Shown one piece after another: positions 17,603 to 53,054 of a stretch of DNA of 64,000 nucleotides; within the stretch, counting starts at the first letter, position 1, and each line of letters opens with the position of its first letter. Both the position numbers and the translations under genes were made by a program. Below the pieces are notes generated by a model. The model did no database searches and was not told the origin of the DNA. It saw only the letters and a program-made list of their open reading frames with translations. This DNA comes from Lytechinus pictus (lineage: Eukaryota): assembly GCF_037042905.1 (NCBI RefSeq), contig NC_087245.1, positions 11,720,001 to 11,784,000 on the forward strand. The letters are read 5' to 3'.

Positions 17603-17616
17603 GTAGGTCAAAATTA

Positions 17617-18032
17617 CCATCATTTGCAAAAGTTTAAGACCACCTGATAATTTGTGTGTATAGCACATATATATAATTGTATACTGTAATGGTTTCATTG
17701 AAACTGGCCTATATATTATTTATTAGAGTTGATTCCATGTTAAATTTGAATGGTTAAAGGTAAAGTAATTTAAAGAAATTGTCCAATAGCTTGACTAATA
17801 CTTACGTTTGAAAAAATATTTTGTAGTGAAAATGCTTTTGAAAAGGAAAAAAGATTAGTCAAGCTATTTGACAACTTTGAACTAATTCCTCTTTAACCAT
17901 TCACATCAAACTCAGAATCGACACAAATTATAATTGGCCAGTTTTTAATGAAACTGTTACAGTTGATTATAAGTATTACATGTACTATATATACACAACA
18001 CACAGGTGGTCTTAAACTTATGCAAATTATGG
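17617..18032. mobile_element. Tc1/mariner-type MITE, nearly palindromic
   Basis: TIR ccatcatttgcaaaagtttaagaccacctg/caggtggtcttaaacttatgcaaattatgg; TA flanks; inverted similarity extends inward. Confidence 0.82.
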
Positions 18033-19934
18033 TATATGGTGCTTTCTAATTACCCTTATTTGCCAAAGTTATGTGGTTACAGCAAATATTGATGTCATGA
18101 GTAGGTCTTTTTAATCAATGTTATTATTTACCATATCATCATTGGTCTAGATCTGGTACATATGAACCTAAATTTGTAAAATCATGAAAACTAAGCTGAA
18201 AAAAAAATCACCTACACAGGAAAGCACATGTGGGACAATGTATTTTTTATTTCTTGGAAAAAGACCAGACACCTGGTCAAAATGCCTTGGTATTTCACTG
18301 TATTTTAGCAATGGATTCATTTTCATGAATTTTGCACACAAAAATATTGACACATCTATGTCCCCAACAGCAATGATTAGCTTCTTAAAACATGCCGTGT
18401 AATCAAGTCCCTGGGTTACCGCGTAGATGTACAAAACATAAGGTTGGAAATAGTCTTAGGCATTCATAAAGTTAGCTAGAATTTTACCTTATTATTTTTT
18501 TTTAAAGTTCAGAGCTTAACTTCTAAATTTATATTAATTTCCTATCATGTTAATATCAATAGTCATTCACTTACTTTGACATTCCAATGTATTTTTCATG
18601 AAATTTGATTACCTATTTCATTTATTGTATTGACTCTAGTTATATGTAAAGGTATTTGAATACTCATTAAATTTACATGAGTCACCTGACCAGGGTTTAT
18701 AAAATGTAAAATCACTTCTCTAAATTTTACATTTTTTAACTTGAACCAAGTTTTTTAAAAAAGAATCAGGCAAAACACAACTTACCTGAGATCGCTTTTA
18801 CAGATCAAACTATGACGTGATTAATTTTTATAGCTAAAACTGCAAAAAGTGAAGATTTAAGCCAATGTTTTCACACTTATCAACCCATATTTTCATGGAC
18901 AATTTATGTACTAGATACATGTCAGCCAAGGAGCATTAATGAGCACATTCCTGCACAAATATTGGATGGCTCAGAATGGAATACCAGAGATATTCCAAGA
19001 TTTGGGCCAATTCCACAATATTCCACAATCGCAGATGAGTGGAATATTTCTGGTATTCCATGAAATAAAGCCATCCAATACAATTATTATTATTATGATA
19101 AGAATCAGTATTCTTGTGGATGCCCTGACTTTCGTCATCAATATTGTCATCAATGTTGTCTGTTTTCTTGAGCACGTACAAGGAATACACCTGTTAAATG
19201 CAAAAGATATAACATTTATGACAGGTTCTAGTAGTCATAACTTTGTCATTTCATTTAACACCATAATATTCAATACCATGCTTACTGTATGTCAAACACA
19301 CAATGATAGGATAAAAATAATACTGTATTAGTTTCCCTCGTCCATAACCATTTTCAAAAGGATTTTTTTTCATGTTACGAGAAGTGAGGCCCTACATGAT
19401 AATTCCTTTTTTTCTCTCTATCTTTCCTATTTTTTTCTATCTCTCTTAGAACTAAATTTCCTTCTCAGCTCTCTGTCTTTCTTGTAATCAAGCACATTAA
19501 TATGCGCAATGCCAGCTAGTGTATTGAGGATATACGCCCCCACATGTCCTTGGCCTTCATATTGGTTAGAAATGCATTCACTCAGAACTAATGGTGATTG
19601 TGATTGGTATGTCTGTAAAAAGATGGGCAGGTATGTAGAGAGATAAGACAGAGAACAGACAATGTTCAGAATGCCAAATTGTTACAATAATAGGAGTCTC
19701 TCATCTCTGAGAGAAATGACAAAATTTATATAAAAAGAAATGACAATTTTCCAGAATACCACCCAAGGACTTCTGTTTTTCTTCAATGTTCCTTTAGCAA
19801 TTGCTGGTTATGTTTTGATTGCTAAAAGAACATAAAGTCAGTGCTGGAGAGAGGGTTCATTCTAAGTCAGATTAAACAAAATTTGGGAAATATTCATATT
19901 CTTTTCCTTTTCATGTTTTGCTTTTGTTATTCAG

Positions 19935-21202: not shown

Positions 21203-21334
21203 CCTAACATGGTTAGGTTTTATCCCAATTTTTGAATGATTTTATCATTTGAATATTTTTCAAATCATGCAGTTTAAGTTGTTGATAAAATAATAATTTT
21301 CCAAAGAGTGAGAAAGTGGAAATACCGGTATACA

Positions 21335-22585
21335 CAAGTGGAAAGTACCAATTTACTACAATGGTATGTTCCATTGTCCCCTGATGTAGAGTGCAAGTAT
21401 ACTCCAATGGAAAGTGCTTGCATACCCCAATGTAAAATGCTAGTATATGCTATTGGAAAGTGATAGTATGCTATAATTGAAAGTGATAGTATACTCCAAT
21501 GGAAAGTTCTAATGTACTTCAATGGAAAGTGATAGTATACTCCAATGGAAAGTTCTAATGTACTTCAGTGGAAAGTGATAGTAGACTTCAATGAAAAGAA
21601 CTTGTTTACTTGATGGAAAGTGATAGGATACCCCCATGGAAAGTGCTCACATACCCCAGTAGAAAGTGCTTGTATATCCCATTAGAAAATACTAGCTTAC
21701 ACCATTGGAAAGTGCGAGTATACTTCAATGGAAAGTGCTAGTGTACTCCAATGGACATTGCTGGTATTCCTCATTTGAATGGCTAGTATACCCTTAATGG
21801 AATGTGCTAGTTTAATTCAAAGGAAATTGCTGGTATACTCCAATGGAAAGTGCTAGTATATTCCAGTGGAAAGTGCTGGTACACTGCAATGGAAAGTGTT
21901 AGTATACTTCAATGGAAATGGCTGGTATACCCTTGATAGAGTGTGCTTGTATAATCCAATAGGAATTGCTAGTATACTCCAATTGAAAGTGCTAGCATAC
22001 TCTAAAGGAAAGCGATAATATACTCAAATGGAAGGTGCTAGTAAACCCCAATGGAAAGTGATAGTATACTCAAATAGAAGTGCTATTATACCTCAATGAA
22101 AAGTGGTAGTGTAATCCAATGGAAAGTCATAGTATACTCTGATGGAGAGTGATAGTATACTCCAATAGAAGTGCTAGTACACCCCAATGGAAAGTGATAG
22201 TTTACTCCGATGGAAAGTGATAGTATACTCCAATATAAAGTGTTTGTATACCCCAGTGGATAATACTTGCATACACCAATGGAAAGTTCTAGCATACTTT
22301 AATGGAAAGTGATATTTTCCAATGGAAAGTGGTAGTGTACTCCAATGGAAAGTGTTAGTGTTCTTCAATGGAAGGTGATAAATTCTAGTATACCCCAAAA
22401 CAAAGTGCTAGTATACAATTGAAAGTGCTGGTATACTCAGATGGCAACTACTAGTATACTTCAATGACACATACCACCATGGTTTGTGAAAGTATAGGTC
22501 GATGGAAAGTGATAGTATAATCCAGTGGAAAGTACAAGTGTACTCCAACGGAAAGTGCTAGTGTCCTCCAGCGGAGAGTGATAAT
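21335..22585. repeat. 23-bp degenerate minisatellite (~50 units) just after the FLVCR stop codon
   Basis: Consensus aatggaaagtg(a/c)tagtatactcc repeated head-to-tail without spacers. Confidence 0.92.
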
Positions 22586-22905: not shown

Positions 22906-23480
22906 TTGTGTGAGTAAAAAAAAAAACTTGACACCTCACAAATCCCGAATTTTAGGAAAAAACTTGTCATGAACACATAATCATTAAATATGGGCAGAAA
23001 AAGTATCTTCTCCCAAATAATTTGATACCATATTTATATTGTGTTTTCACGCTTGGGAAATCTGTAGGTATTTGTTGCAATGATGTAAATTTTGATTTGC
23101 ATTAAAGTAAGGCATGACTTCAATGAATGAATCCAGATGTCAATGATTTCATAATCATACAAGGGTTGCATTAGAATCCATTACAAAACACCTATGAATA
23201 ATTAACATTAGAATTGTATAATTAACACTTTTTAGTATAAATTCTTAAGTTAATTTCATTGAAAAGGGATTTGCAAATATGTCTACTAACTCATGTAGGA
23301 TTATACCATCATTGGAATGGAGACGCATTCGATGCAGCCATGCCTTACTTTGGCACAACTCGAACTTTAAATCACAGTAAAAAATATCTCCTCATTATCC
23401 AAGCATTAACACATACCACATAAATATGGTATCAATTTGTTTGGGAGAAGATATTCTTTCAGGCCATATATAAAAATTAT
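22906..23480. mobile_element. Decayed palindromic MITE (Tc1/mariner-like)
   Basis: Inverted match tatcttctcccaaataatttgataccatattta (~23003) with taaatatggtatcaatttgtttgggagaagata (~23420); ends approximate. Confidence 0.5.
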
Positions 23481-23963
23481 ATGTTCATAACATATTTTTC
23501 CTTCAATTGGAGGTTTGTATCGCACAGTATATATATATTATGTTTTATTAATGAAAATATCACTGAAATACTATTAAATAGCTTATAGGCAGTTGGTAAC
23601 CTTGCCCAGGTTACAAAATAAAAATTATATATCCATCTAGTGTTTTTATCATAATGGAAAACCTTAAGCTGACCTGAGCATGAGCTTAACAAACCAAGAC
23701 CCATATTCTGACGTCTGGTTTAACTTCGGCCATGGTCTAACTCTTTTTTTTTTTTAATTATGGAAAGTCAAAAATTTCAAAATTGCTTTTAGATGACATG
23801 TTTCCTATCTTATCCTGGCTCTTTCTTTATATTTTAATGATGAAGAGAACTATCCCAGTAATTATTTTCAGTCAGGTATGAATAATTTGAGTGTCAAATG
23901 AGCTTGAAAATTGAACTTATAGACTTTTAGAGTTACCTGTCACATTTGGCTATTCATAGTTAA

Positions 23964-27782: not shown

Positions 27783-29328
<1,546 letters not shown>

Positions 29329-31405: not shown

Positions 31406-31627
31406 AATTCTTTTTCTCTTTTTATTCAAATCAATGTTCTTGTTTGGGTAGACTTGCCCTTTGAATTTATATTTATTGCATGTGTGTGTGCATGTGATTG
31501 CAGTTGTACAATGTGTATCAATCATATATCAGTGGCGGATCTAGGTGTTTAGCGGGTTAAACCTCGGCTTAACCCATTTGGTTTACCACTAATTTTGTCT
31601 AATCTTGAGTTGGTCTGAGATCTGCAT

Positions 31628-32710
31628 GGTCTAATACCCACTACGTCCAATAACCATGTTGTCTAATGCTGTTAAGTCCATTATTATTTCGTTTTATAGC
31701 CATTTCGTCCAATAGCCAGTTATTCTAAGAGCCACTTCTATATCCAGCTCATCTAACCTCATTGCCAGTTGGTCCAATTCCCACTTGGTCCAATTGACAG
31801 TATTTCCAATTAATACCCACTTGGTCCATTCGACAGTTCAGCCAATTTTCACTTGGTCTAATGCCCGTTACTGGGGGCAGGTGCAGATCCAGGGGGTGAA
31901 TGGGTGGGTCCCCCTCCTAAGAGCCATTTCTTTCAATAGCCATTTCGTCTAATAGCAAGTTCTTCTACCTTCATTGCCAGTTGGTCAAATTGCCATTTTG
32001 CTCCAATACCCACTTGGTCCAATTGCCATTTTGCTCCAATACCCACTTGGTCCAATTGACAGTTTGTCCACTTTCCACGTGGTCGAATTACCATTTTGTC
32101 CACTCGTAATTTTGTCTAGTAACCAGTTGGCCCAATAGCCATTTAATCCATGTACTATTTGGTCTAATTTGACTAAGTGTTAATTGGGCGATATGAAAGG
32201 AAATAAAATGGATATTAGATCAACTGGTTATGAGACGAAATGGTCATAGACGAACTGACTATTGGACGAAATGGCTATTGTAAGCAAGTGCCTATTGGAC
32301 GAAATGGCTGTTAGATTGGGGACCCATTAACCCCCTGGATCAGTGCCTGCCCCCAGTAACAGGTATTGGACCAATTGGGCGAACTGACCAACTGTCAATT
32401 GGACCCAGTCGGTATTGGACAAAAATGGCAATTGAACAACTGTCAATGAAGTTAGACGAAATGGCTATTGGAAGAAATGTCTATTAAATGAAGTGGCATT
32501 TAGACGAAATGGTTCTTGGAGGAAGTGGATATTGGATGAAATGGGTCTAAGAGGAAGTGGCTATTGGACATAATTGCTCTTAGACGAAGTGACCCTTAGA
32601 GAAACTGGCTATCGGACGAAATGGCTATTGAACAAAATAGTGTTGGACCAAACGGCATTAGATGACATGGCCATTGGACGAAATGGCATTGGACGTAGTG
32701 GCAAATCACC
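31628..32710. mobile_element. Foldback element with inverted arrays of ~20-bp repeats
   Basis: Left arm repeats ccatttcgtccaatag/ccacttggtccaat, right arm repeats ctattggacgaaatgg; termini ccactacgtccaa/ttggacgtagtgg. Confidence 0.8.
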
Positions 32711-38596: not shown

Positions 38597-39785
38597 AAAG
38601 AAATGTCGTCCTTGACATTTACAACAATATTTACAAGTAACGAATACATATATGCTAATCAACGAAAAGAAAATATCGATACAAAATGGCTGTCCAATTT
38701 ATCAAGGGGATTACTCCTGACACAAAATTCTGATCTACAATTTGTATGCAAAATGGTCGTGTATAAACACATGTCTATACTCAAATGAATTTTCGCAGAA
38801 GAATAATATCCTAAATATCGCAAGTTCAAGAACATTGCGTGAAAAGTGTAAACATACCAGGCGGCCTTTCCTGATAGTATACAACTCTCGATCAATTAGA
38901 TCTTTATACGAAAAAAAAAATAATTCATACAACACATTAGTGTGCTTGAGCAGCTAGTCCATTAAACAAAAAAAACTTGAGAGAGATGCCTGATAACTAA
39001 TGCATTCTACATTTCATAGCTATATGACTATAAAAAAATGAAATTTAGAAATGCCTATGTCAACTGCGCAGTGTCTAATTTAAGTCTCTGTGCATCTCAT
39101 CTCCCAAAACAAATCTCTATCTGATCATTAAAAAGTTCTTCCAAACTATTAATTTCGAAAATGATTTTCAATCAGAGTTCTTCAGCACACGAAATTCAGG
39201 TACACATGCTGATTCAGCGTGGAATACTGGGACGGTTGGTTTAGATATACTCCACCTTGGTTGGGGTAAGAGTAAATGCTATTACTGCTTGGCACATATT
39301 CTGGGGAATACACCGTCTGTTGTGGGGGCATGTGGACATACATTCCACCTATATTCGAGTTCACACTTTGCATGTCTGGTTCTCCAAGTCCACTGTAGGT
39401 GAATTGGTTAGGAGGTCGTCGATCCCTTGCAGGCCATCGAGGCAAGTTAACCTCATCCGGTGTAAGGACCTGGTCTGTTGGGTTGTCGACAGGCTGCATC
39501 TCATCCAGTCCGGTTCGCTGCATATCAAGATAAGCATCATCTCTGCGATATCCAGATGCTGGTTTCCATCTACAGTCGCTGTCGGGTTTGGTAGAGGTTG
39601 GCCTCCTTCAGAAGTAGTCCTTCATCAAGCCTGGTGCCCTCAAGGTCCGCAGGTTCAGGGATTCGCAGATGAATGTCCTCAACGGGATCAGAGCAGTCTA
39701 AAGGTGCCTGCTCTGCCACCGGCGAGTCTACCCTGGATGTCTCTTCTAGTGCATCAGAAGCTGCTCGACGATAATACTCAGTCAA

Positions 39786-42700
39786 TTATGCATCTTCGTC
39801 ATCTGAGCTGTCTATTTCTGCTTGATGGAATTGGTCATGTCGTTCTTCCTTCGTAACAGAGCGTCTGTTAACCTTATTAGTTGTAGTAGGAAGTTGTGTC
39901 GGCTGGCTGCTGTCCAAAGAGTCACAGGGGAAGAGAAGATGATGTTGGCAGTAGCCTTCCGGCCATGATGATGCTTTGCTTTCTCTGATGACTTCTGGGC
40001 GTTCTTCCTGGCAATAGTATAAGCCTCGTTTAGTCTGTCTTTCCATTTCCGCACATACTCTCCGAGGTCACGAGGCGGAATGGACTGAGTAGGGGTCAAA
40101 CCGAAGACCAAGTCAATCGGCAGTCGAGGAGAGTGCCTAAAGAGAAGGTAGTGTGGAGAAAACCCAGTAGTCTCATGCCTGGTGTTGTTATAGGCATGGA
40201 TTACTTTGTTCAGATGCTGTCTCCAATCTTGCTTCTGTTCTTCAGTGAGAGTTCTCAGCATAGACAGCAGGGTGCGATTGAAGCGTTCCACTTGTCCATT
40301 TCCCTGGGGATGGTACGGAGTAGTTCTCGAGTGCCCAACACATGTCAGTTCCCTCAGCCTGGCGAAGAGATTGTTTTCGAATTCCCGGCCTTGATCATGG
40401 TGGAGACGCCTCGATCGGATAGCCAAACTTCAGTACAAAATCATTGAAGATTTTGTCAGCAGCAGTTCGCCCAGACTTGTTTGAAGTTGGATATGCTTGA
40501 GCAAATCTCGTGAAATGATCCATGACGACGAGAATATATTCGAACCCTCCTTTACTTTTCTCAAGATGAAGGAAGTCAATGCTGACAAGTTCAAATGGTT
40601 CAGTGGTGACGATTGGAACGAGTGGAGCCTTGGGTTGTCTGGTTGGTACTTTCTGCTTGACACAGCTACACCTGCTAGCGATATGGTTGCTAATGTAGCT
40701 CTCCATGTGGGGCCAGTAGAAACGATCCCTAGCGAGATGGGAGTGTCCTGTCTGTGGCCAGATGTCCCATCTTCCCGTGGAGTTCACCACAAATTAGGGA
40801 CCACCACTTTTCAGGTACAACTAGTTGTGTCTTGGTTTTAGTGTGCCGTCGGAGAATCCCGTCGTCTCCCATCCTCAGATTTCTCCATTCATGCATCATT
40901 GTGGTGGTGTTCTTGGATTCACCATTTCTCTCCTGAGTCTTAGGCCATCTATCTTTCTTTTTGTAAGATAGAATTCTAGAGATAGCAGGATCTTCCGCTT
41001 GGGCTCTTCTGATTTCGGCTGGACTGAAGATAGCCGGTTGCATCTCTGCATCTATCCCTGTAATTCCGACATCAAGAGGTAGAGACTGGGCAAAGGAGAA
41101 ATATGGATGCTCTGTTAATTTGAACCCCCTGAATGGCTGCTCCCATGACATCCGGCGAGATCTCTTCCGAGAAGGTCTGGTTAGCATCTTCAGGGTCATT
41201 TGGCATCCTGGAGAGAGCGTCCGCATCTCCATTCTGCTTGCCAGGTCTATAGCGAATGGTGAAGTTAAAGTCTGCCAACTCACCTACCCATCTGTGCCCT
41301 ATCGCATTCAACTTGGCTGTTGAAAGGATGTACGTGAGTGGGTTGTTGTCGGTGTAGACCACAAAGTTCTTGGCATAGAGGAGGTAGCTCCTGAAATGAT
41401 CTGTTATGGCCCATTTCAGAGCAAGAAATTCCAACTTCCCAGAATGGAGATGATAGTTCCTCTCTGCTGGGGTCAAGGTACGGGATCCATATGCTATTAC
41501 CCGCAACATTCCTTCTCTCTTCTGATAAAGCACGGCACCAAGACCTTCCTGTGAAGCATCTGTGTGAATTATGAATTCCTGGTCGAAATCTGGGTAGGTC
41601 ATGACAGGTGGGTTGATAAGTTCCTCAATCATAGAGTCGATAACAGCTTGATGTTTCTGAGTCCATATAATTCTGGTACTGGATGGAGCTTGGCCATGTT
41701 GCTGCTTCTTTCCCGCCTTCTTAGACTTTGCTCTAGGGTTCGGGGTACTTGGTGGGTTATGTGATTTTAGAAGCTCGTATAGTGGCCTCGCCCGTTTGGC
41801 ATAGTCCTGGAGATACATTCGGTAGTAGCCTGTGAGACCGAGAAGTTTCCTCAGATCACCTACCGTCTCTGGCCTCTTATATCTGATGGTTGTGAGGGCC
41901 TGTGTCTCCTTGGGATCCGCTCGATATCCATCTGCTGAGATAATTCTTCCCAGGAACTTGACTTCGCTCTGGAAGAGGCTACATTTTGATGGTTTCAGCT
42001 TCACCCCATGCTCACTTAGGCGTCGCAGAACAGTTCTGAGATGGGTGAGATGTTCTTCAAAGCTCTGGCTATACACAATTATATCGTCAAGATATACCTC
42101 ACAGATGTTGTGATTCAAGCCATCAAGAATTCCATGCATCTCTGGTAGGTTGCTGGTGCATTCCGTAACCCAAATGGAATCCGTTTCCATTCATGAAGTC
42201 CCCATGGAGTTACGAATGCTGTCATTGGTTGACTCTCTTCTGCCATGTAGCCTTGGTGATATGCCTTACCCTGGTCCAGTGTAGTAAACCAGCGATTTCC
42301 TCCGAGACTGTCGAGGATATCCTGCATACGAGGATCGGTTGTCTATCAGGAATCGTCTTCCGGTTCAGCTCACGATAGTCAATGTAGAGACGTAATCCTC
42401 CATCTTTCTTTCTCACGCAGACTACCGGAGAGGCATATGGGGACTCTGACTTTGTGATCCACCCTCTATCCAGAAGATCCTGCAGGTACAGTTTTACTTC
42501 CTGATACAATGGGCGTGGTATCGACTGGTAAGTACGCTGCACTGGAGTATCGTCGCTTAGTCTCAGAGTCATCTGCAATTCAGGAATTGAACATATATCT
42601 TTGTCGCCCTTGGAGAAACTCGCCTCTTCCTGTCTGAGTAACTCCTGTACTGATGATCTCTGCTCCTCAGGCAAATGGGGGAGTTGAAATGTCTGGTCAT

Positions 42701-43330
42701 TTTTTGAAGAGTCGGCAGACTCTGCAGACAATGAACTAGAGTTGATGAACATCTCATCATGTGCAGGTGGAGGGTAGCCAGGCAAAACAGACCGGACATA
42801 TGGAGTACCTGGCCTAGTATAGTGCGGCTTGGAATGACAAGTGGTCGGTCGGAATGATTTGAAATAGGAATGTGGATCCGGCAGGAGTTCCCTCGAGAAA
42901 GTCGCAGTAGATACGGCTCGATCTCCAGTCCCTCGGGCCACTCGCCATCACAGTTGGGCTCAAATAAGACTTGGGTGTCTTCAGTGTTAGGCCTGGCTCG
43001 TACTCTGGTGGCTAGGTTGATTGTTGAGTTGGCTGGAACTTTCGCAACTGATCTTCCAGTACGCACACAGCAGATCTCTTCAGTCTCCCTTGCTTTGCCG
43101 ATGACGTTCAACAACTTTAGGGCCTTGTCTTGGGATAGATTTGGGATTGTTGCTTGTAGAGTACTGAGTGGGATTTGATCACCATTGAAGTTGTTAATTA
43201 CCTCTCCAATGACGTTGGAGCCGATGATGGGTTCCCGGAGGTCATCTGTCGCAACAAGGAATGGCACCGATAACGTTGGGCTCCGAGAGGACAACTGCAA
43301 ATCAATTGGAATCCATCCAATGCAAAGCCC
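39786..43330 (-). pseudogene. Gypsy pol pseudogene (partial protease, RT, RNase H, integrase)
   Basis: PIIGSN (protease C-half); SPYASPVVCVRKKDGGLRLYIDYRELN, PFGLRNAPATYQR, YLDD (RT); TDASQEGLGAVL, YTDNNPL, NGDADALSR (RNase H); HGKMGH...[26 protein letters not shown] (integrase). Broken by several frameshifts. Confidence 0.95.
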
Positions 43331-44060
43331 TTCATCATCTCGAACTCCGGGTGCTGGCTCTTATTTTTTTGTTTTGCAGGTTGTTCTGCGTTGTCCTCAG
43401 TGATGACATTCACCCGTGCTGCGGGTCGGATCCCAGCTTTCAGTTGCCGCTTTGATTCCAGGGCAACTGCAGTGTGCAATTTTTCCAGGAGTTCCTCATC
43501 ACTGGTTGTGACAGACAAAGATGATTTAAGATCTTGTCTGATCTGGTCATTGCACAGCCCAGTAATGATCGTGTGGATGAACATATTCTGCACAAGGCTG
43601 ACGTCATATTTCAGCCCAGTGGTTGTGTCCTCGGAGGCCCGGATTATCCGCTGACGCAGATCCAGAGCCCGCATCACGTAGCTCTGCGCTGATTCAGTCT
43701 TCCCCTGGGTTGCCTGCGAAAGCTCTTGATATAATTCAGTTGCATCCTGCTCCTGATAATGCGATTTCAAGAATACCTTGAGAGTCCCGAGATTGAGGTT
43801 GGAGCAGCTTTCCAAATACGATCGAAGCCTTAATTAGGCTGGGGTGAATGGCCTTTAAAACACTCTCCACCACCTCAGCTTCTGAATATCCTTTCAAAAG
43901 GGCTGCATCTATCTGGTGGTTGAGGCTAGATAGAGTTATAGCCTGTCCTTGTGACTTGAATCACCCACTTGGCCGCAGATTCGCAGCTCCTTTCTGATCA
44001 TCTGCATGGGTTGAACCGGAACTGGAATTGAAGGCTTCTCTTCCGGCCACCACATCTTTT
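43330..44060 (-). pseudogene. Gypsy gag remnant
   Basis: FLKSHYQEQDATELYQELSQATQGKTESAQSYVMR, a capsid-like segment upstream of pol; frameshifted. Confidence 0.75.
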
Positions 44061-47384: not shown

Positions 47385-47995
47385 GGCAGGCCATAGATAT
47401 TCATTCGAGCCAACTCATTGCTCAATTTTGAAATTTGATATAGTGCTGATTGACAAAAATGAATGAATATGATTGACAATCTAACACTGATTCTAGGGAG
47501 GGTACCTACTGAACTTCCTTTTTCCAAATTGGAAAGATATATCACTACTTTGGAACTATTTTTTTACTGGCGGAAGAATTAGGGCCATTTTACTCTCTCA
47601 AGTGATGAATTTGTATGTGTGTGTGTATTTGAGTTTTGTCAGACGTGTATCAATCAGATATGATTATTTACGTCTGGGACCGACCTTTAACGTCACCATC
47701 CGAAAGACGTGACCAGGGCTCGAACCTTTGCATCAATTTGTCACTTCCCCACATATATAGCTTGGATTACAGGCGCACTCCACAACGCCCAGTTTGATCC
47801 TGTCAGGTGTAGTCTTCATAAATGCCGATTTATTTTTAAAATGAGCCAGTCGAGGTACCCTTTTTCTGGTCAGATATGGAATGTCAGACATATATCCTAT
47901 CCACTGGTAGTAAACATTCAACCCTCGAATTTCCTCCTTATTTTTTATGATTTTTTATAAGTGCCACTTCAACACACGAGTCTATGGGAAATTAA
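47385..47995. repeat. Interspersed repeat, copy 1 (host of the 7SL-like SINE)
   Basis: Collinear with 52160-52575 apart from the 47614-47793 insertion. Confidence 0.8.
47614..47793 (-). mobile_element. Short SINE with a 7SL-like head, B box, Deu-like body and (CA)n tail
   Basis: Minus strand: actgggcgttgtggagtgcgcctgtaatccaagcta...ggttcgagccc...gtctttcggatggtgacgttaaaggtcggtccc...tacacacacacata. The empty site gatgaatttg|atc is present at 52370-52382. Confidence 0.75.
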
Positions 47996-51719: not shown

Positions 51720-52159
51720 AACCATGAGTGTGGGGGTGAACCGATATGAGACCCTACCCGAAGGAGCGTTTCATCAATATTTTTCTCCAACAAGTTGTCA
51801 GATTTGACATCTTTCCTTGATTCTGATTGGCTGAGAAACACTATTGATATGGTAACTGTCGGATAAAATGGGATTTGTCGAACTGCTGTGCAAACCCTTA
51901 AGGCCCGGGTCTGAATGTGCAGCCTACTCATACCTTGTGTACTGAAGGTCCTCTCGCTCCTGAATTGAAACAGCAAATTTTGTATGTGCTAGTCTTTGCG
52001 TGGAGACACACTTGCTGATCAACGTTTCAATCGGGGTCTGCATGTGCCTGCAGACCACTGAACTGGTATTTCCAGTTCAGTGCTGCAGACAAGTCCTTTC
52101 ATGTCACGCTTCAGCGTGCAAGAAGGGATAGGTTGCATGAGCCTAATTACAACAGGAAG

Positions 52160-52575
52160 GCATAAGATATTCATTCGACCCGACCCATTCAATTTTTTTA
52201 ATTTGATATAGCTGATTGACAAAAGTGCATGATTATGATTGAAAATCTAACACTGATTCTTGGGATGGTAACTACTGAACTTCCTTCGCCCAAATTGGGA
52301 AGATAGATAAGTGAATTGGAATTATTTTTTTACTGGCGGAAGAATTAGGGCTATTTTACTGTTTCATTTGATGAATTTGATCGATTCATAGTTATCTTCA
52401 TAAATGGCGATTTATTTTTAAAATGAGCTGGCTACGGCACCCTTTCCTGGTCAGATATGGAATTTCGGATATATATCCTATCCAATGGTAGTAATCATTC
52501 CACCTTCTAATTTCACATTCATTTTTTATGAATTTGTCAAAAGTGTCATTTTAACACACAAGTCTATGGGGAATG
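52160..52575. repeat. Interspersed repeat, copy 2 (uninterrupted)
   Basis: Direct repeat of 47385-47995 without the SINE. Confidence 0.8.
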
Positions 52576-53054
52576 TTTTACGCGCGTGACACCGATAGAC
52601 CAAGCAACACTGCCGTGTGTTGCTGACCTCTACGTTCGTTTGGATAGAATATATGCACGCATATCGCATGCGCGCGCACACGTACACGTACACGTGACGT
52701 GAATATGCGGAAGTGATAGAAGGTGTGAATCTACCGCTCGACATTTCTTAACTATATAATAATTGCAGTTAACTTCTTGGAGACCAAAGCCACATTTTTT
52801 TTTATCATATCCCATTTGAACTACTGGAAACATGTCTTGGGATTCTTACATCGATAACCTCGTTGCCCAGACCAAAGATGCGTCGGGTAATGCTCATTGT
52901 GATAAGGCTTGTATCATCGGTATGGATGGTGGAGCACCGTGGACAACGGACGGACATGCGTGTGCATTTAAGGTATGACTATGAGTATGAGGTAACACCC
53001 ATGAGCTTAATATGACTCCATGAGCTATGAGCCCGGGGGGGGGGGGGGGGGGGG

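What the first reader, a model, noticed from the sequence alone, without database searches (positions are those of the whole stretch)
47614..47793. Candidate 7SL (SRP RNA)-derived SINE in an invertebrate genome
Seen: a discrete 180-bp minus-strand insertion, delimited by an empty paralogous site at 52370-52382 and a short ttg duplication. It begins ACTGGGCGTTGTGGAGTGCGCCTGTAATCCAAGCTA. By my manual alignment this matches 27/36 positions of the human 7SL 5' end as I recall it (GCCGGGCGCGGTGGCGCGTGCCTGTAGTCCCAGCTA), keeping the GGCG/CGCC helix and the UGUA turn of the SRP Alu domain. Then come a B box (GGTTCGAGCCC, 47726-47716), a segment resembling the Deu central domain (TCGGATGGTGACGTTAAA..GGTCCC) and a (CA)n tail. 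Known: 7SL-derived SINEs are rare; I know of them from Euarchontoglires (Alu, B1) and hagfish. Inference: an independently evolved, chimeric Alu-like retroposon that might bind SRP9/14.
Basis: partly seen in the sequence, partly recalled or inferred. Interest (0 to 1): 0.85.

Follow-up and report, generated by a model that had tools for sequence, protein, structure and literature searches.

The report
Sea urchin SINE with 7SL head
This is one copy of a short jumping element, present well over a thousand times in a sea urchin genome, whose first 47 bases come from the animal's own signal-recognition-particle (7SL) RNA, the same rare origin as human Alu but keeping only the smallest piece that Alu needs to jump.

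Summary
Confirmed. The 180-bp insertion belongs to a dispersed SINE family (985 exact head-motif hits, 1,673 tail-motif hits, controls 0). The host is Lytechinus pictus, by one 100% protein match. The head matches the host's own 7SL genes (34/36 nt; 40-41/47 columns). It stops at the closing helix of the Alu 5' domain, the 46-nt piece shown necessary and sufficient for Alu retrotransposition (PMC11760393). Unlike Alu, B1, Urop and hagfish SINE1-1_EBu, it has no 7SL 3' part. After the head come a B box, about 37 nt of Deu core, a hairpin and (CA)n. Host 7SL genes carry their B box downstream of the gene (6 of 7), and the SINE's B-box region may come from that flank (post hoc, undecided). The LINE partner was not found; expression and SRP9/14 binding are untested. 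Six paper searches found no invertebrate case; Repbase and Dfam could not be searched. This scan found the same family before on other DNA of this genome (e1-7810414, e1-7787790).

The parts
47743..47793 (-). 7SL-derived head: whole Alu 5' domain (helix 3, U-turn, helix 4, closing helix); 47 nt in the family, 51 nt here
   Evidence: Rfam RF00017; 40-41 of 47 columns identical to host 7SL genes
47780..47789 (-). Pol III A-box position of 7SL, inside the head
   Evidence: position equivalent to the 7SL A box named in PMC7245038; function inferred
47727..47742 (-). spacer; its 3' part resembles the 3' flank of host 7SL genes upstream of their extragenic B box
   Evidence: post hoc, undecided
47716..47726 (-). 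Pol III B box
   Evidence: sequence; matches the B-box consensus (recalled); function inferred
47675..47711 (-). 5' core of the Deu (Nin) domain, about 37 nt
   Evidence: 27-30 of 41 columns identical to a host tRNA-headed Deu SINE, shuffle p 2e-4; by eye like the printed Deu alignment
47640..47676 (-). 3' hairpin, candidate LINE recognition signal
   Evidence: -13 kcal/mol, z -3.45, 2 of 200 shuffles, folded on the near-consensus copy L060; no partner found
47614..47639 (-). A-rich linker and (CA)n tail
47794..47796 (+). 3-nt target duplication, right copy (left copy 47611-47613)
   Evidence: not significant alone
52370..52382 (+). empty paralogous site in an older host repeat

Best explanation
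A non-autonomous retroposon (SINE) whose head was taken from the host's 7SL gene. Shown: the family is dispersed, long-lived and still young in part (77-100% identity to consensus), with a fixed 5' end at the 7SL start. Its head ends at the closing helix of the Alu 5' domain, and insertions often have short target duplications. Inferred: RNA polymerase III transcribes it from the 7SL A box plus a B box about 50 nt downstream that is not from inside 7SL. The RNA has no internal run of four T. The 3' hairpin and (CA)n tail are read by an unidentified LINE reverse transcriptase, probably CR1/L2 type like the listed partners of sea urchin SINEs. Inferred, about 55%: the head folds into the SRP9/14-binding domain, which brings the RNA to ribosomes where LINE protein is made, as for Alu. 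The confidence given is for 'SINE with a head from host 7SL'.
For: 985 exact head 19-mer hits and 1,673 tail 25-mer hits (<=2 mismatches), reversed controls 0. 7 full 7SL genes at 272-283 bits. Consensus head against them: 34/36 in 5 of 7 genes, 38/41 and 31/31 in the other two; no match to the 7SL 3' end. Head present in 26 of 30 tail-picked loci and in 14 of 18 loci picked by likeness to an old fragment, down to 77% identity; no other head seen. In 72 copies (6 of 78 dropped as segmental duplicates) the closing-helix pairs hold in 68 and 70, helix-4 pairs in 69-71, loop-loop contacts in 70 and 64. The SINE's U3-A45 pair replaces a C-G pair and is shared with one 7SL paralogue, L037. Non-CpG head variants shared by 4 or more copies all lie in loop 4. 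Target duplications of 5 nt or more in 16 of 65 copies against 2.3% of 4,160 control pairings. SA46 result: PMC11760393. An SRP14-like match exists in the genome (30.6 bits, cut-off 27, one stop inside the match).
Against: No expression data. No partner LINE: 0 of 20 sampled LINE 3' regions match the tail, best E 0.055 (20 picked from 150 listed of 12,239 candidates). The head is not better conserved among copies than the rest (2.5% non-CpG substitutions against 1.0-2.2%). Unconstrained folding gives helix 3 but not the closing helix, which costs energy (-8.0 against -12.8 kcal/mol); unconstrained folding of host 7SL misses that helix too. A 2-nt deletion in loop 4 is in 20 of 72 copies, so that loop tolerates change. 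35 of 65 copies show no duplication of 3 nt or more. Relaxed ARAGORN called tRNA-Pro in 2 of 78 copies.
Confidence: 0.93

Rival explanations
1. Same origin, other mechanism: the 7SL piece serves only as A box and start site. The Alu fold is a passenger, and the LINE finds the RNA through the 3' hairpin alone.
For: The tail has a stable hairpin of the kind stringent LINEs read (role inferred). The head is no more conserved among copies than the body. Loop 4 is longer than in 7SL and varies between subfamilies.
Against: Homology runs on 33 nt past the A box and ends at the last base of the closing helix. Shared non-CpG variants avoid the stems and the loop-loop bases, though they are too few for a test.
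Confidence: 0.4
2. Birth route A: a deletion inside a 7SL gene locus removed the S domain, the 3' end and the terminator. It joined the Alu 5' domain to the gene's own downstream B box; a Deu SINE body and tail were added after.
For: A B-box motif lies 19-43 bp downstream of 6 of 7 host 7SL genes, and the same scan found none inside any of the 7. The flank motif occurs 4 times in the genome, always at a 7SL gene. The 17 nt before the B box in long-form copies align to that flank of 3 of 5 genes tested at 12-14 of 19 columns, shuffle p 2e-4 to 2.5e-3.
Against: Window lengths and copies were chosen after seeing the likeness. No signal for 2 of 5 flanks or for the short-form consensus anchored at the B box (lowest p 0.03), and little 3' of the B box (lowest p 0.03). 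The long form's extra 7 nt look like a tandem duplication. L037, the paralogue closest in the head, lacks the downstream B box. The host tRNA-Deu SINE also aligns weakly (7-12 identities, lowest p 0.01).
Confidence: 0.45
3. Birth route B: template switch or recombination replaced the 5' half of the tRNA head of a Deu SINE with 7SL nt 1-44, much as proposed for hagfish SINE1-1_EBu.
For: The B box sits in a T-arm-like context directly before a Deu core. A tRNA-like-headed Deu SINE exists in the genome (L096-L101). Precedent in PMC7245038.
Against: No tRNA-headed element with this spacer or tail in 30 + 18 loci. The known host Deu SINE shares only the 37-nt core and has about 95 nt between B box and core.
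Confidence: 0.45
4. The head is a decayed tRNA that resembles 7SL by chance, or the copies are separate 7SL retrocopies or chimeras and not one SINE family.
For: ARAGORN at a relaxed threshold called tRNA-Pro in 2 of 78 copies.
Against: No Rfam tRNA match at E<=10. The same relaxed setting also calls tRNA-Pro on the opposite strand of an unrelated SINE. 31/31 identity to a host 7SL gene. One fixed junction and shared subfamily variants across 72 copies.
Confidence: 0.03

Closest known systems
SINE1-1_EBu, hagfish Eptatretus burgeri (PMC7245038; main text parts 1-3 of 4 and supplement passages read)
   Same: 7SL-derived head from the host's own gene, chimeric with other SINE/LINE parts, microsatellite tail, similar copy number (2,363 full-length)
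   Different: Hagfish keeps 7SL 5' 96 nt with its own B box plus the 7SL 3' end, has an RTE-derived body and about 17-bp target duplications. This element keeps 47 nt only, with a B box from elsewhere, a Deu core and 0-13-nt duplications.
Alu/B1/Tu (Euarchontoglires) and Urop of the shrew mole (PMC13023118, passages read)
   Same: Alu 5' domain at the 5' end; Pol III A box from 7SL
   Different: All have 7SL 5' and 3' parts joined by a central deletion; the Euarchontoglires families have a poly(A) tail and use L1. None of that is seen here.
SA46, engineered minimal Alu domain (PMC11760393, passages and Discussion read)
   Same: Same 3' boundary: the closing helix of the Alu 5' domain
   Different: SA46 has no B box and so cannot go through further rounds; this natural family carries a B box from elsewhere. 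SA46 was tested with human L1 and poly(A).
DeuSINEs: AmnSINE1, EbuSINE1/2, SINE2-3_SP, BivaMD-SINE1 (PMC4824008 passages and supplement file 2 part 1; PMC7245038 supplement passages)
   Same: 5' core of the Deu domain directly after the promoter
   Different: Only about 37 nt kept (70-330 nt in the described ones); the described heads are tRNA or 5S, not 7SL. The SINE2-3_SP sequence was not seen.

Membership tests
SINE (SINEBase definition, PMC3531059) | Short interspersed repeat with at least 100 copies | tested here: met
   173-nt consensus; 985 and 1,673 motif hits, best copies on many contigs
SINE (SINEBase definition, PMC3531059) | At least 60% identity to tRNA, 5S or 7SL over at least 60 nt | tested here: inconclusive
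   44/61 to 47/63 in a forced 60-nt alignment, but true homology ends at nt 47
SINE (general) | Retrotransposition marks (target duplications, 5' truncation, simple-repeat tail) | tested here: met
   16 of 65 duplications of 5 nt or more against 2.3% control; 4 of 30 truncated
SINE (general) | Transcribed by Pol III | not testable with these tools
   A and B box motifs only; no read data obtained
SINE (general) | 3' tail shared with a partner LINE | tested here: inconclusive
   0 of 20 sampled LINE 3' regions; small sample
SINE1 (Repbase class: 7SL-derived head) | 5' head derived from 7SL RNA | tested here: met
Alu/B1/Urop/Ebu1-1 architecture | 7SL 5' part joined to 7SL 3' end by a central deletion | tested here: not met
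   no match to the 7SL 3' end at word size 5
Alu/B1/Urop/Ebu1-1 architecture | B box from inside 7SL | tested here: not met
   homology ends at nt 47; no B-box motif found inside the 7 host genes
Alu/B1/Urop/Ebu1-1 architecture | Binds SRP9/14 | not testable with these tools
   pairs and U-turn kept; binding inferred
DeuSINE superfamily | Deu/Nin central domain (70-330 nt in described members) | tested here: inconclusive
   about 37-nt core, 27-30/41 to the host Deu SINE; published Deu sequences compared by eye only
SINE2 (tRNA head) | tRNA-derived head | tested here: not met
   no Rfam tRNA match; relaxed ARAGORN 2 of 78

The most novel reading that the evidence does not exclude
The first invertebrate 7SL-derived SINE and a fourth independent origin. 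It is a natural 'SA46' element that kept exactly the SRP9/14-binding domain, and it solved the missing-promoter problem by fusing that domain to the 7SL gene's own downstream B box. It uses SRP9/14 to reach ribosomes although its partner LINE is not L1. That would make ribosome docking through the Alu 5' domain a general way to capture LINE proteins, and would explain when 7SL can seed a SINE in animals whose 7SL promoter lies partly outside the gene.
Probability: 0.28. Interest if true: 0.85.

Novelty: new variant of a known kind. Interest (0 to 1): 0.72.

Why it matters
Papers up to February 2026 list 7SL-derived SINEs only in Euarchontoglires, hagfish and one shrew mole (PMC13023118, PMC10886601, passages). 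All of these keep both ends of 7SL, which was read as a need for the whole Alu domain (PMC7245038). Cell assays then showed that the 5' 46 nt suffice and that the 3' part is needed only for its B box (PMC11760393). This family has that predicted build in nature, in an echinoderm, with more than a thousand copies and some identical to the consensus. It gives a direct test of whether SRP9/14 binding helps a SINE that is not carried by L1. The host is a laboratory species (recalled).

Tried and rejected
LINE partner: a tail pattern that excludes the SINE's own upstream bases gave 1 hit, a truncated copy with no LINE frame upstream; 0 of 20 LINE 3' regions matched. Donor tRNA SINE with the same body: none in 30 + 18 loci; 6 of 7 Deu-variant hits were another family and 1 was a diverged member of this one. 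A separate sister family around L095: not supported, best other hits 77-91%. Mitochondrial COX1 for the taxon: absent. Sequencing runs: no RNA holder listed; my query held by error only 49 nt of tail plus flank, so it says nothing on the head or its spread across species. Read mapping gave no result, so expression is open. Metagenome scan: 0 hits. tRNA reading rejected (see rivals). The mir-1268 match (E 1e-3) is taken as Alu likeness (its Alu origin is recalled). The SURF1 paper was not held. A paper search for extragenic B boxes of 7SL listed 4 papers, none on this by title or abstract start (listing only). Supplement file 1 of PMC4824008 could not be searched, and other papers' supplements were not opened; they could hold sea urchin SINE sequences.

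Full report
Observation. The element is at 47614-47793 on the minus strand, with the B box at 47726-47716. It interrupts a host repeat whose other copy at 52129-52592 (80-83% identical) is empty at 52370-52382. The 3-4-nt duplication is real but not above chance alone. Rfam's best match is Metazoa_SRP (E 6.3e-4, 22.9 bits, under the family cut-off), and no tRNA or 5S family matches at E<=10.

Family. The genome is 812 Mb in 368 contigs. The element gave 1,515 first-look candidates; the 40 scored gave, apart from the copy itself, matches at 94-96% and one at 90%. An exact 19-nt head motif occurs 985 times and a 25-nt tail motif (<=2 mismatches) 1,673 times; reversed controls give 0. Of the first 30 tail-picked loci (one is this copy), 26 carry the head and 4 are 5'-truncated. 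Of 18 loci picked by likeness to an old fragment, 14 carry the head, some by eye only, down to 77% identity. The 78 full-length copies held range from 77 to 100% identity to a consensus built from the 33 copies most like this one, so the sample leans young. Duplications of 5 nt or more flank 16 of 65 copies, against 2.3% of 4,160 control pairings; 35 of 65 show none. A first, looser test gave a weaker excess.

Host. A receptor frame in L064 is 100% identical over 246 aa to a record named Lytechinus pictus; a Diadema protein is at 70%. This is one gene.

Head. Seven full 7SL genes score 272-283 bits. The consensus matches 34/36 nt in five, 38/41 and 31/31 in the others, and nothing matches the 7SL 3' end. 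Over the whole Alu 5' domain 40-41 of 47 columns agree; Rfam aligns model positions 1-44 to 47 nt of a near-consensus copy (E 2.9e-6). Homology ends at the last base of the closing helix. The SINE has U3-A45 where six 7SL genes have C-G; the seventh, L037, has U-A too. In 72 copies (6 dropped as segmental duplicates) these pairs, helix 4 and two loop-loop contacts hold in 64-71 (contact positions recalled from the SRP literature). Non-CpG head variants shared by four or more copies lie in loop 4. Against: the head is not more conserved than the body among copies, and the closing helix is not in the minimum-energy fold. This copy has lost one loop-loop contact and gained 4 nt in loop 4.

Rest of the element. 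A B box follows about 50 nt after the A-box position. The host 7SL genes show no B-box motif inside, and 6 of 7 have one 19-43 bp downstream (the script failed after printing this). The SINE's spacer resembles that flank in 3 of 5 genes tested (12-14 of 19 columns, p 2e-4 to 2.5e-3), but only for long-form copies and with windows chosen after the fact; a host tRNA-like-headed Deu SINE aligns less well (7-12 identities). The B box's source is therefore undecided. Next come about 37 nt that match that Deu SINE at 27-30 of 41 columns and share, by eye, a 13-nt run with AmnSINE1 in the printed Deu alignment. The tail folds as a hairpin (z -3.45) and ends in (CA)n. No partner LINE was found.

Mechanism. 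Shown: origin of the head, chimeric build, dispersal with retrotransposition marks. Inferred: Pol III transcription from a hybrid A+B promoter; reverse transcription by a LINE that reads the hairpin, probably CR1/L2 as for the three sea urchin SINE entries tabled in PMC3747384 (passages). Inferred at about 55%: SRP9/14 binding and ribosome docking. PMC11760393 (passages and Discussion) shows that the 5' 46 nt bind SRP9/14 and support retrotransposition at about 86% of full Alu, and that such RNAs cannot continue for lack of a B box. This family has that boundary and a borrowed B box. An SRP14-like match is in the genome (not followed up).

Comparison. It meets the defining feature of SINE1 (7SL head). 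It fails two features shared by the described families: the 7SL 3' part and the internal 7SL B box. So it is not filed with the Alu/B1/Urop/Ebu1-1 architecture, though it may work like them. Read: PMC7245038 (main text parts 1-3 of 4, supplement passages), PMC13023118 (passages), PMC3531059 (passages), PMC4824008 (passages, supplement file 2 part 1), PMC10886601 and PMC5786205 (passages).

Novelty. Six searches (listings only, apart from the papers above) showed no invertebrate 7SL-derived SINE. The 2024 and 2026 papers name only primates, rodents, tree shrews, hagfish and shrew mole. Repbase and Dfam were not searchable, and most subscription journals are not held. This scan noted the family twice before on other DNA of this genome; my reading of a 47-nt head was recorded before that look-up. 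A look-up by sequence returned nothing.

Verdict. Real, a new variant of a rare known kind; interest 0.72.

Noticed in passing
L031-L036, 19-43 bp downstream of each 7SL gene: 6 of 7 host 7SL genes have a conserved B-box motif after the terminator, in otherwise diverged flanks, and none inside the gene: a candidate extragenic Pol III promoter element.
   Followed up: partly
L031:1290-1463, L035:1294-1467, L036:1315-1467: A variant SINE copy sits about 30-35 bp upstream of three tandem 7SL genes, in the upstream sequence that is uninterrupted in L033 and L034. With about one copy per 480 kb this is unlikely by chance (one event, then duplicated); perhaps a preference for Pol III genes.
   Followed up: partly
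L037 (G000:C12:4895279-4895577): 7SL paralogue with the same U3-A pair as the SINE, several private changes and no downstream B box within 400 bp.
   Followed up: partly
L096-L101: A SINE family with a tRNA-like head (A and B boxes by eye) and a Deu core; perhaps the relative of SINE2-3_SP (not tested).
   Followed up: partly
L039, L041-L044, L024: Head-to-tail pairs of full copies; those of L039 and L041-L044 share flanks and have spread as part of a larger repeat.
   Followed up: no
L038, minus strand 1078-1410: A copy lies just before what looks like the last exon of an amyloid-precursor-like gene (YENPTY motif, recognised by eye).
   Followed up: no
window 31476-31529: 54-nt remnant 76% like the SINE tail, next to a palindromic element.
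   Followed up: no
window 39185-43833, minus strand: Gypsy-like LTR retrotransposon coding region split over several frames (recognised by eye).
   Followed up: no
window 28031-28435, minus strand; L050:3-980: Tc1/mariner-like transposase fragments (by eye).
   Followed up: no
window 17615-18034, 22938-23518, 31700-32512; 21315-22585: Three palindromic MITE-like elements and a 1.3-kb degenerate tandem array.
   Followed up: no
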